Virus genome (UHGV): UHGV-0056970 | Length of the DNA stretch: 14,706 nucleotides | Source of the DNA: a virus | Strand: one strand, 5' to 3' | Shown here: piece by piece, positions 2,825 through 2,876 of the stretch | Layout of the letters: each line of letters starts with the position of its first letter | Numbering within the stretch: the first letter of the stretch is position 1 | Translations under genes and position numbers: made by a program | Notes under the pieces: generated by a model | Database searches by the model: none | Told to the model about the DNA's origin: nothing | What the model saw: only the letters and a program-made list of their open reading frames with translations

Positions 2825-2876
2825 GCTTGTCCCTTATACCTGAAGTCGCCACAAGTTGTGGCCAATAATTTGTAAA

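What the first reader, a model, noticed from the sequence alone, without database searches (positions are those of the whole stretch)
2848..2862. 15-bp palindrome in the int / ATPase intergenic region
GCCACAAGTTGTGGC lies 14 nt downstream of the int stop and about 25 nt upstream of the ATPase start on the same strand, and is not followed by a T-run, so it is not an obvious terminator. It could be a protein-binding site controlling cargo expression.
Basis: seen in the sequence. Interest (0 to 1): 0.2.

Follow-up and report, generated by a model that had tools for sequence, protein, structure and literature searches.

The report
Conserved stem-loop between integrase and nuclease
The 15-base palindrome is real and is a slightly worn copy of a small hairpin kept in related prophages right after the integrase gene; it most likely shapes the transcript running from integrase into a toxic defence nuclease, which is an ordinary kind of element.

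Summary
The palindrome GCCACAAGTTGTGGC is at 2848-2862 as described. The genes lie on the minus strand: 14 nt after the int stop, 23 nt before the "ATPase" ATG, no T-run. Alone it is not beyond chance. Its significance comes from comparison. In 15 distinct related junctions the element is UGGCCAC-N5-GUGGCCA, with a variable loop, a conserved 7-8 bp stem and 90% of cells paired. Four of 8 pairs show double (compensatory) changes, in three lineages. RNAalifold predicts it as the only consensus structure. The window copy has lost the outer G-C pair and is the weakest (-8.8 vs about -12 to -13.5 kcal/mol).

All 11 lineages with an intact upstream int keep a stable hairpin. Lineages that kept the cargo but lost int have weak or no hairpins. 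There is no regulator gene in the cassette, no second copy and no resemblance to the CI/Cro operators. No sigma-70 promoter is predicted over it in the window.

Best reading (about 0.5): an RNA stem-loop at the end of the int message, a U-tract-poor attenuator and 3'-exonuclease barrier. It would limit or decouple read-through into a toxic OLD-family nuclease, whose partner methylase has its own terminator and promoter. The operator reading is not excluded but disfavoured. Low interest; new member of a known kind.

The parts
2846..2864 (-). Stem-loop in family register: 5'-UGGCCACAACUUGUGGCGA-3'. In the window six pairs form (2862-2857 with 2853-2848), with loop 2856-2854, at -8.8 kcal/mol. 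The reported palindrome 2848-2862 lies inside it.
   Evidence: fold, z = -2.6. Consensus structure. Pair counts.
2877..4043 (-). Tyrosine integrase (Arm-DNA-bind_2 + Phage_integrase). Its stop codon lies 14 nt upstream of the palindrome.
   Evidence: It is 86-99% identical to the int of related ssrA prophages.
2882..2910 (-). Weak candidate promoter inside the int 3' end: TGGACA-N17-TAGAAA. The -10 lacks the final T. This is inferred only.
   Evidence: It is kept at the same position in 14/14 lineages, including three without int. The E. coli version is called TGGACA-18-AACAAT by the scan. It is not called in the window.
2830..2835 (-). Shine-Dalgarno sequence AAGGGA of the nuclease gene. It lies 10 nt after the stem-loop element (2846-2864) and is not sequestered by it.
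   Evidence: Sequence. The fold of 2800-2900 shows no significant alternative structure (z = 0.05).
1091..2824 (-). 'AAA ATPase', which is an OLD-family ABC-ATPase + TOPRIM nuclease and the presumed toxic or restriction component.
   Evidence: Pfam AAA_15/21/23. AF2 model with pLDDT 87. Foldseek top hits are OLD nuclease 6p74, GajA and the retron Eco8 effector. E357 and D411xD413 are invariant.
1037..1079 (-). Canonical intrinsic terminator (GGGCUUUAU-N9-AUAAAGCCC + U-run) fused to an extended -10 promoter (TGATATAAT, -35 TGGCCA) for the methylase.
   Evidence: Sequence. Conserved in all lineages, including those without int. Called in E. coli 042.
99..1010 (-). D12-class (Dam-like) N6-adenine DNA methyltransferase, homologous to PD-lambda-5 component B.
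   Evidence: Pfam, PADLOC 2.4e-123, NCBIfam dam subfamily.
6..30 (-). Prophage attachment site, the 3' end of ssrA (tmRNA): GGTTCAACTCCCGCCAGCTCCACCA.
   Evidence: Sequence. Identical to the experimentally defined 25-bp attP of PhiNP (PMC6456863). The same repeat lies after the cassette in relatives.
2865..2880 (.). Second, AT-rich palindrome ATAATTTGTAAATTAT that overlaps the int stop codon. It is lineage-specific and probably incidental.
   Evidence: Not conserved in other lineages.

Best explanation
The palindrome is the DNA image of a short RNA stem-loop (7-8 bp GC-rich stem, 3-5 nt loop). It forms in the sense transcript just after the int stop codon, in the int / OLD-nuclease intercistronic spacer of an ssrA-integrating lambdoid prophage whose closest phage record is from Klebsiella. 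It lacks a U-tract, so it is not an efficient intrinsic terminator. The proposed role is that of a pause or leaky attenuator and a barrier to 3'-to-5' exonucleases. In that role it would define or stabilise the 3' end of int messages and limit how much int/pL transcription reaches the toxic nuclease gene. The protective methylase downstream is expressed from its own terminator-promoter unit.

Shown: the element exists, its pairing is selected, it is not coding in the window, it is not a canonical terminator, and it co-occurs with an intact int.

Inferred: that the active form is RNA rather than DNA, and that its effect is attenuation or stabilisation.
For: 1. Conservation. UGGCCAC-N5-GUGGCCA is found at the same junction in 20 IMG/VR contigs, 85 of 5426 complete E. 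coli genomes, phage PhiNP, Rahnella, Yersinia and others. Within the window-type group the stem is invariant while the loop and flanks vary.
2. Pairing. In 15 distinct sequences 90% of cells are paired, against 28-49% for slid controls. Four of 8 pairs have changes on both sides, in three independent lineages (L062 G-C to A-U; L063 two C-G to U-A; Yersinia A-U to U-A). The A-U pair becomes G-U in two related sequences and a C-G pair becomes U-G in Yersinia, read on the sense strand. None of 500 shuffles reaches the covariation score. RNAalifold predicts this hairpin as the only consensus structure.
3. Stability. Relatives with int fold at -11.7 to -13.5 kcal/mol (z about -3 to -4); the window copy folds at -8.8.
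4. Link to int. All 11 lineages with an intact int have hairpins of -8.8 kcal/mol or stronger. Five lineages that keep the nuclease-methylase cassette but have lost int have local hairpins of -1.8 to about -6.4 kcal/mol or none (Fisher p = 2e-4, not corrected for phylogeny). In Yersinia the hairpin stays 5 nt from the int stop but is 39 nt from the ATG, against 22-23 nt elsewhere.
5. Contrast. True terminators with U-runs follow cI and the nuclease gene in the same window.
6. Weak U-tails. Tails such as AUUUUAC, AUUUCAUU and AUUGUUAU occur in some lineages, as expected of a degenerate or leaky terminator.
7. Non-coding. An in-frame TAA lies 12 nt upstream of the ATG.
Against: There are no transcript data, so neither the RNA form nor any effect on termination or stability has been observed. 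The covariation rests on three lineages, and a symmetric operator co-evolving with its protein would also stay 'paired'. The int+/int- contrast is confounded by phylogeny and by general decay of remnant loci. L062 and L063 still show compensatory changes without int, which argues for some function that does not depend on int. The hairpin-to-ATG distance is constant (22-23 nt) in 13 of 14 lineages, which would also fit a cargo 5'-UTR element. One lineage with an N-truncated int (L141) and one with 85% identical cargo (L060) lack the hairpin, so it is dispensable. If it terminated efficiently the nuclease would have no promoter, because only 22 nt remain before the ATG; its effect must therefore be partial.
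Confidence: 0.5

Rival explanations
1. Operator: the double-stranded palindrome TGGCCAC-N5-GTGGCCA is bound by a dimeric protein (host or phage) that represses or activates the nuclease gene.
For: The dyad is perfect, with 6-7 bp half-sites about 12 bp apart centre to centre, and the spacer is variable. The stem sequence is almost invariant across about 10 lineages in which the flanks diverge. If the weak TGGACA-N17-TAnAAA promoter is real, the palindrome would sit at about +12 to +30, a classical roadblock position.
Against: Symmetric double substitutions occur in three lineages. No regulator is encoded in the co-inherited block: the genes are an OLD nuclease and a Dam-like methylase. The window holds a single copy. 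The half-site is unlike the CI/Cro operators. The element decays where the cargo persists without int. No good promoter overlaps it in the window.
Confidence: 0.15
2. Cargo 5'-UTR element: the hairpin belongs to the nuclease mRNA, either transcribed from a weak promoter in the int 3' end or produced by RNase E cleavage in the AU-rich stretch just upstream. It protects the 5' end of that mRNA or tunes its translation.
For: The 22-23 nt spacing to the start codon is constant in 13 lineages. The hairpin is co-inherited with the cargo and the last 250 nt or so of int, not with the rest of int. Phage LLS has an 86% identical int with a different cargo and a different hairpin. L062 and L063 keep pairing without int. 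The AU-rich single-stranded stretch 5' of the stem is visible.
Against: The hairpin weakens or vanishes in 5 of 5 lineages without int that still have an intact nuclease gene. In Yersinia it follows the int stop, not the ATG. It does not touch the Shine-Dalgarno sequence. The candidate promoter is poor, with a -10 lacking the final T.
Confidence: 0.15
3. Methylation-sensitive or self-recognition site: the palindrome contains the target of the cassette's methylase or nuclease, so that methylation status feeds back on expression, as in CfrBI-type restriction-modification regulation.
For: TGGCCA occurs in both arms in relatives and also forms the -35 of the methylase promoter, within a conserved ATGGCCAT.
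Against: TGGCCA is not rare or confined to these sites in the window: 9 copies against 4.6 +/- 2.4 expected. The stem covaries away from TGGCCA in L062, L063 and Yersinia. The methylase specificity is unknown.
Confidence: 0.05
4. No function: a chance palindrome, or a relic that merely hitch-hikes with the int 3' end.
For: Such palindromes are common in this window. The window copy is already degraded. Some lineages have lost it without losing the cassette.
Against: The stem is invariant while adjacent bases vary. Changes are compensatory and 0/500 shuffles reach the covariation score. It is retained at 64% cargo identity in Yersinia.
Confidence: 0.07

Closest known systems
Intercistronic mRNA-stabilising stem-loops, e.g. 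REP hairpins in malE-malF (Newbury et al. 1987; from my own knowledge)
   Same: A GC-rich hairpin without a U-tract lies between two co-directional genes just after a stop codon. It is expected to block 3' exonucleases and to uncouple the levels of the upstream and downstream cistrons.
   Different: This is not a dispersed repeat. There is one copy in the window. The motif is found in only 26 IMG/VR contigs, 20 of which are this same junction. The sequence is unrelated to the REP consensus.
Leaky intrinsic terminators / attenuators
   Same: The stem is 7-8 bp at about -12 kcal/mol and sits at the end of a gene. Some lineages have partial U-tails (AUUUCAUU, AUUGUUAU) that pass a simple terminator rule.
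   Different: The window and most lineages have only 2 U in the tail, and the scan does not call it. The gene immediately downstream has no room for a promoter of its own.
Lambda tI / sib retroregulation of int (from my own knowledge)
   Same: An RNA structure downstream of int is thought to control int message fate.
   Different: sib lies beyond attP and is separated from int on integration. It is a long RNase III substrate, and tI has a U-run. Here the hairpin is short, stays linked to int in the prophage, and att is 2.8 kb away.
Restriction-modification expression logic (methylase first, toxic partner limited)
   Same: The methylase has an independent, probably constitutive promoter. The nuclease depends on upstream transcription that must pass the hairpin.
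   Different: There is no C-protein or C-box and no methylase HTH. The nuclease is an OLD-family ATPase-TOPRIM protein, not a classical restriction enzyme.

Membership tests
Rho-independent (intrinsic) terminator | GC-rich stem-loop at the end of a transcription unit | tested here: met
   The window has a 6-bp stem and relatives a 7-8-bp stem, 14 nt after the int stop.
Rho-independent (intrinsic) terminator | U-tract (about 5 or more U in 8 nt) directly after the stem | tested here: not met
   The window tail is GACUUCAGG and the site is not called. The E. coli 042 type, AUUUUACG, is not called. Only the EcRL2 and Yersinia types reach 5 of 8.
Rho-independent (intrinsic) terminator | Transcript 3' ends map to the tail | not testable with these tools
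   No RNA data are available.
Palindromic operator of a transcription factor | Dyad symmetry with conserved half-sites | tested here: met
   TGGCCAC-N5-GTGGCCA is present in most lineages.
Palindromic operator of a transcription factor | Overlaps or adjoins a promoter | tested here: inconclusive
   No sigma-70 site is called in the window. Only a weak TGGACA-N17-TAGAAA lies upstream.
Palindromic operator of a transcription factor | Cognate DNA-binding regulator encoded nearby, or a match to known operators of the element | tested here: not met
   The cassette proteins are an OLD nuclease and a Dam-like methylase, and no HTH was found. The CI/Cro operators are ACAG..CTGT.
Lambda sib/tI retroregulator | Lies distal to attP, so that integration separates it from int | tested here: not met
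   att (6-30) lies 2.8 kb beyond the hairpin, and the hairpin stays next to int in the prophage.
Lambda sib/tI retroregulator | Extended duplex suitable for RNase III | tested here: not met
   Only 6-8 bp form, and no longer consensus structure exists.
REP/BIME dispersed hairpin repeats | Many copies per genome with a family consensus | tested here: not met
   The window has a single copy, even allowing 3 mismatches. In IMG/VR the motif is essentially confined to this junction. The whole host genome was not available.
nut boxB antitermination hairpin | 5-bp stem with a conserved purine-rich pentaloop, preceded by boxA | tested here: not met
   The loop varies freely: AACUU, AAAUU, AAGUU, ACAUU, ACGUC, CAUUU, CCCUU. 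The site is at the distal end of the leftward operon.
Any curated RNA family (Rfam 15) | Covariance-model match | tested here: not met
   No hit covers 2846-2864, even at E <= 10.

The most novel reading that the evidence does not exclude
The hairpin is a purpose-built, U-tract-less attenuator. It sets the nuclease:methylase ratio of a restriction-modification-like defence cassette that I did not find described (OLD-family ATPase-TOPRIM nuclease plus a PD-lambda-5B-like Dam methylase), and it ties nuclease expression to int/pL transcription. Nuclease output would then rise with prophage induction or establishment, while methylation stays constitutive.
Probability: 0.15. Interest if true: 0.4.

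Novelty: new member of a known kind. Interest (0 to 1): 0.15.

Why it matters
By itself this matters little. It is one more small structured spacer at a gene boundary, and it suggests how a prophage may insulate a toxic defence gene placed between int and att from phage transcription. Its practical value is for anyone cloning or studying this widespread OLD-nuclease/methylase cassette. The roughly 100 nt upstream of the nuclease (int 3' end plus hairpin) is part of the co-inherited unit and probably sets its expression. It should therefore be kept, or deliberately mutated, in constructs.

Tried and rejected
1. Chance palindrome. The statistics for the palindrome alone are unimpressive. It is rejected only because of conservation and covariation.

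2. Coding sequence. PhiNP's GenBank record starts the ATPase 51 nt upstream, across the palindrome, and the E. coli and PhiNP types do have an in-frame upstream ATG. The window has an in-frame TAA 12 nt before the ATG, so the element is non-coding here.

3. Recombination or mosaic boundary of the cargo. The identity breakpoints against L007, L061 and L075 lie inside int (about 3100-3600), not at the palindrome.

4. Part of attP or an arm site. att is at 6-30, 2.8 kb away.

5. CI/Cro operator. The half-sites differ.

6. Promoter elements within or around the palindrome. No acceptable -35/-10 spacing was found by eye or by scan.

7. Methylase target (TGGCCA). The motif is not depleted or confined to these sites.

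8. A general 'structured leader' upstream of all homologous cassettes. The 60%-identity lineage shows no consensus structure, only a sigma-70-like promoter. The 43-50% lineages have unrelated upstream regions.

9. Known RNA family. None matched.

10. Hairpins after int in other relatives. PhiR12_5 has a textbook terminator, LLS has a different 10-bp hairpin next to its cargo's start codon, and the others have nothing. There is therefore no universal design.

11. The genome-contig scan returned only one locus. The metagenome scan returned nine.

Full report
**Observation**

Window 2848-2862 (+) reads GCCACAAGTTGTGGC. All relevant genes are on the minus strand:
- xis, 4004-4222.
- A tyrosine integrase, 2877-4043 (Arm-DNA-bind_2 + Phage_integrase).
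- A 577-aa 'AAA ATPase', 1091-2824.
- A D12-class adenine methyltransferase, 99-1010.

On the sense strand the element lies 14 nt after the int stop and 23 nt before the ATPase ATG. It is followed by GACUUCAGG, so there is no U-run, and the terminator scan does not call it.

Taken alone the palindrome is not beyond chance. Palindromes with >=7-nt arms and spacer <=5 occur 18 times (about 13 sites) in the window, against about 5 in shuffles. The pattern itself is expected 0.66 times when 3 mismatches are allowed.

**Context**

- The last bases of the window on the minus strand (30 to 6) are the 3' end of ssrA/tmRNA. They are identical to the experimentally defined 25-bp attP of Citrobacter phage PhiNP (PMC6456863).
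- The order is therefore xis - int - [palindrome] - ATPase - methylase - att. This is a cargo ('moron') slot between int and the attachment site of a lambdoid prophage.
- The prophage has a CI (S24) repressor at 7106-7738, Cro at 7836-8066 and a CII-like gene at 8095-8646.
- The rest of the window is 96% identical to Klebsiella phage Kp4866-6.

The 'ATPase' is an OLD-family ABC-ATPase + TOPRIM nuclease:
- The AlphaFold model has pLDDT 87.
- The best PDB matches are the Thermus OLD nuclease 6p74, Gabija GajA and the retron Eco8 effector, over the full length.
- E357 and D411xD413 are invariant in 35 homologs.

The methylase matches PADLOC PD-Lambda-5_B at 2e-123. The published PD-lambda-5 partner is a ParB/HEPN protein (PMC9519451 supplement), so this is a different pairing.

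**Comparative evidence that the element is selected**

The int-ATPase junction was recovered from these sources:
- E. coli: 85 of 5426 complete genomes hold most of the junction query.
- Phage PhiNP.
- IMG/VR contigs.
- Metagenomes.
- Contigs encoding ATPase homologs.

Across 15 distinct junction sequences the motif is U-GGCCAC-N5-GUGGCC-A. Most relatives have 8-9 bp arms. The window has lost the outer G-C pair (GUGGCC has become GUGGCG) and has the weakest hairpin of all int-containing lineages: -8.8 kcal/mol against -11.7 to -13.5.

Within the window-type group the 14 stem bases are invariant apart from the outermost positions, while the loop and both flanks vary. Observed loops are AACUU, AAAUU, AAGUU, ACAUU, ACGUC, CAUUU, AAUUU, CCCUU and CACUU.

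A scan of IMG/VR for GGCCACAANTTGTGGCC found 26 contigs. Twenty are this junction. The other six are unrelated, and two of those are plain terminators.

**Pairing**

- RNAalifold on the 100-nt junction alignment predicts this hairpin as the only consensus structure.
- On the final 15-sequence alignment 90% of cells are standard pairs, against 28-49% when the partner is slid.
- Four of eight pairs show changes on both sides. L062 has G-C to A-U. L063 has two C-G to U-A. Yersinia frederiksenii has A-U to U-A.
- The A-U pair also becomes G-U in two related sequences (PhiNP type and L005), and a C-G pair becomes U-G in Yersinia, read on the sense strand.
- None of 500 shuffles reaches the observed covariation score (earlier versions).
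- The events come from only three lineages, so the support is real but modest.
- A symmetric protein site that co-evolves with its protein would pass the same test.

**What the element travels with**

- Phage LLS has an 86% identical int and the same ssrA attP. It carries a different cargo gene and a different hairpin after int.
- Sliding identity shows that the last 250 nt or so of int, the hairpin and the cargo are inherited as one block. The mosaic breakpoints lie inside int, not at the palindrome.
- The nuclease-methylase cassette also occurs without int: K. pneumoniae L139/L062 next to sorbitol PTS genes, Pantoea L138/L060, L063/L146, L144, and L143 next to an IS. These loci retain only a decayed int 3' remnant. 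Their hairpins are weak or gone: about -6.4, -2.7, -1.9, -1.8 and -5.2 kcal/mol.
- All 11 lineages with an intact int have hairpins of -8.8 kcal/mol or stronger. Fisher p = 2e-4, uncorrected for shared ancestry.
- In the most distant int-containing lineage (Yersinia, 64% nuclease identity) the hairpin sits 5 nt after the int stop and 39 nt from the ATG. Elsewhere the distance to the ATG is 22-23 nt.
- More distant cassettes (43-62% identity) lie in other genomic places and have no such hairpin. The 60% group has a recognisable promoter, TTGAGT-17-TATATA, in its place.

**Interpretation**

The evidence points to a base-paired element whose maintenance depends on an upstream int transcription unit.
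- It is not a canonical terminator: the U-tract test fails in the window and in most lineages.
- The same phage uses textbook terminators after cI and after the nuclease gene.
- It cannot be an efficient terminator, because only 22 nt containing the Shine-Dalgarno sequence separate it from the nuclease start, and no promoter is predicted there.

The most coherent model is an intercistronic RNA stem-loop that acts as a pause or leaky attenuator and as a 3'-exonuclease barrier. It would define or stabilise int message ends and limit read-through into the toxic nuclease. The methylase is driven independently by a terminator-plus-extended -10 promoter unit (1037-1079), which is conserved in every lineage, including those without int. 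This gives 'methylase constitutive, nuclease limited', the usual logic of restriction-modification systems, here apparently achieved through transcript architecture. I rate this model at about 0.5. The pairing and the link to int are shown. The RNA form and the effect are inferred.

**Rivals**

- Operator (0.15). It fits the dyad and the near-invariant stem sequence. Against it: the cassette has no cognate regulator, there is no second site, it does not resemble the CI/Cro operators, and it does not explain the covariation or the decay without int.
- Cargo 5'-UTR stabiliser (0.15). It fits the constant distance to the ATG and the retained pairing in L062 and L063. It could combine with a weak promoter candidate, TGGACA-N17-TAnAAA, in the int 3' end, kept at the same position in 14/14 lineages. 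That -10 lacks the critical final T, and the hairpin is lost in most cassettes without int.
- Methylation-site feedback (0.05). It was suggested by TGGCCA in both arms and in the methylase -35. TGGCCA is not unusual in the window, and the stem covaries away from it.
- No function (0.07). This is contradicted by the conservation pattern.

**Comparison with known elements**

The element works most like the stabilising or decoupling hairpins found between cistrons (REP-type, from my own knowledge), or like a leaky terminator.
- It is not a REP, since it is single-copy.
- It is not sib/tI: it is short, stays linked to int and lies proximal to att.
- It is not a nut boxB, since the loop is variable.
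- It is not a C-box.
- It matches nothing in Rfam.

**Verdict**

The element is real and selected, but of an ordinary kind. Interest is low (0.15), and the element is a new member of a known kind. The neighbouring OLD-nuclease/methylase cassette, noticed in passing, is arguably the more interesting object.

Noticed in passing
window 99-2824 (-): The cargo is a two-gene cassette: an OLD-family ATPase-TOPRIM nuclease followed by a Dam-like D12 methylase. The methylase matches PD-lambda-5 component B (2e-123), but the published PD-lambda-5 partner is a ParB/HEPN protein. The nuclease-then-methylase pair is conserved down to 43% identity in many prophage and island contexts; 1033 homologs score E<1e-50. 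I did not find this OLD+methylase pairing described as a defence type.
   Followed up: partly
window 1037-1079 (-): The spacer between nuclease and methylase holds a canonical terminator (GGGCUUUAU-N9-AUAAAGCCC + U-run). It is fused to an extended -10 promoter TGATATAAT with -35 TGGCCA. This unit is conserved in all lineages, including those without int, so the methylase is an independent transcription unit.
   Followed up: partly
window 6-30: The prophage end is a 25-bp repeat of the ssrA (tmRNA) 3' end, identical to the mapped attP of Citrobacter phage PhiNP. In E. coli relatives a CP4-57-type integrase follows, which indicates tandem occupancy of ssrA.
   Followed up: yes
window 2882-2910 (-): TGGACA-N17-TA(A/G)(A/C)A(A/G) lies inside the int 3' end and is kept at the same position in 14/14 lineages, including three where int is gone. 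It may be a weak promoter for the cargo.
   Followed up: partly
window 2865-2880: An AT-rich 7+7 palindrome, ATAATTTGTAAATTAT, overlaps the int stop codon. It is found only in the window's own lineage.
   Followed up: partly
window 7066-7090 (-) and 7766-7825: A textbook terminator lies just downstream of the cI repressor gene (AACCGGCCGGCGCCGG + U7). Three ACAG-N-CTGT dyads around TTGACA lie between cI and cro and are presumably the immunity operators.
   Followed up: no
window about 3100-3600 (int): Identity to relatives switches inside int. For L007 and L061 it jumps from about 75-85% to 95-100% at about 3100-3200. For L075 it changes in the opposite direction. The int 3' end and the cargo are therefore exchanged as a block by recombination within int.
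   Followed up: partly
L096-L107 (about 60% identity cassettes), upstream of position 2501: In this lineage the cassette sits after phage replication genes (DnaC-like, DUF1627). It lies behind a strong terminator and has its own conserved promoter TTGAGT-17-TATATA. No hairpin equivalent to the palindrome is present.
   Followed up: partly
L056 2917-2958 (phage LLS): A different 10-bp hairpin (AAUUCCUGCC-N9-GGCAGGAAUU) follows the related int. Its 3' arm contains the AGGA that precedes the cargo gene's start codon, which suggests translational occlusion there.
   Followed up: no
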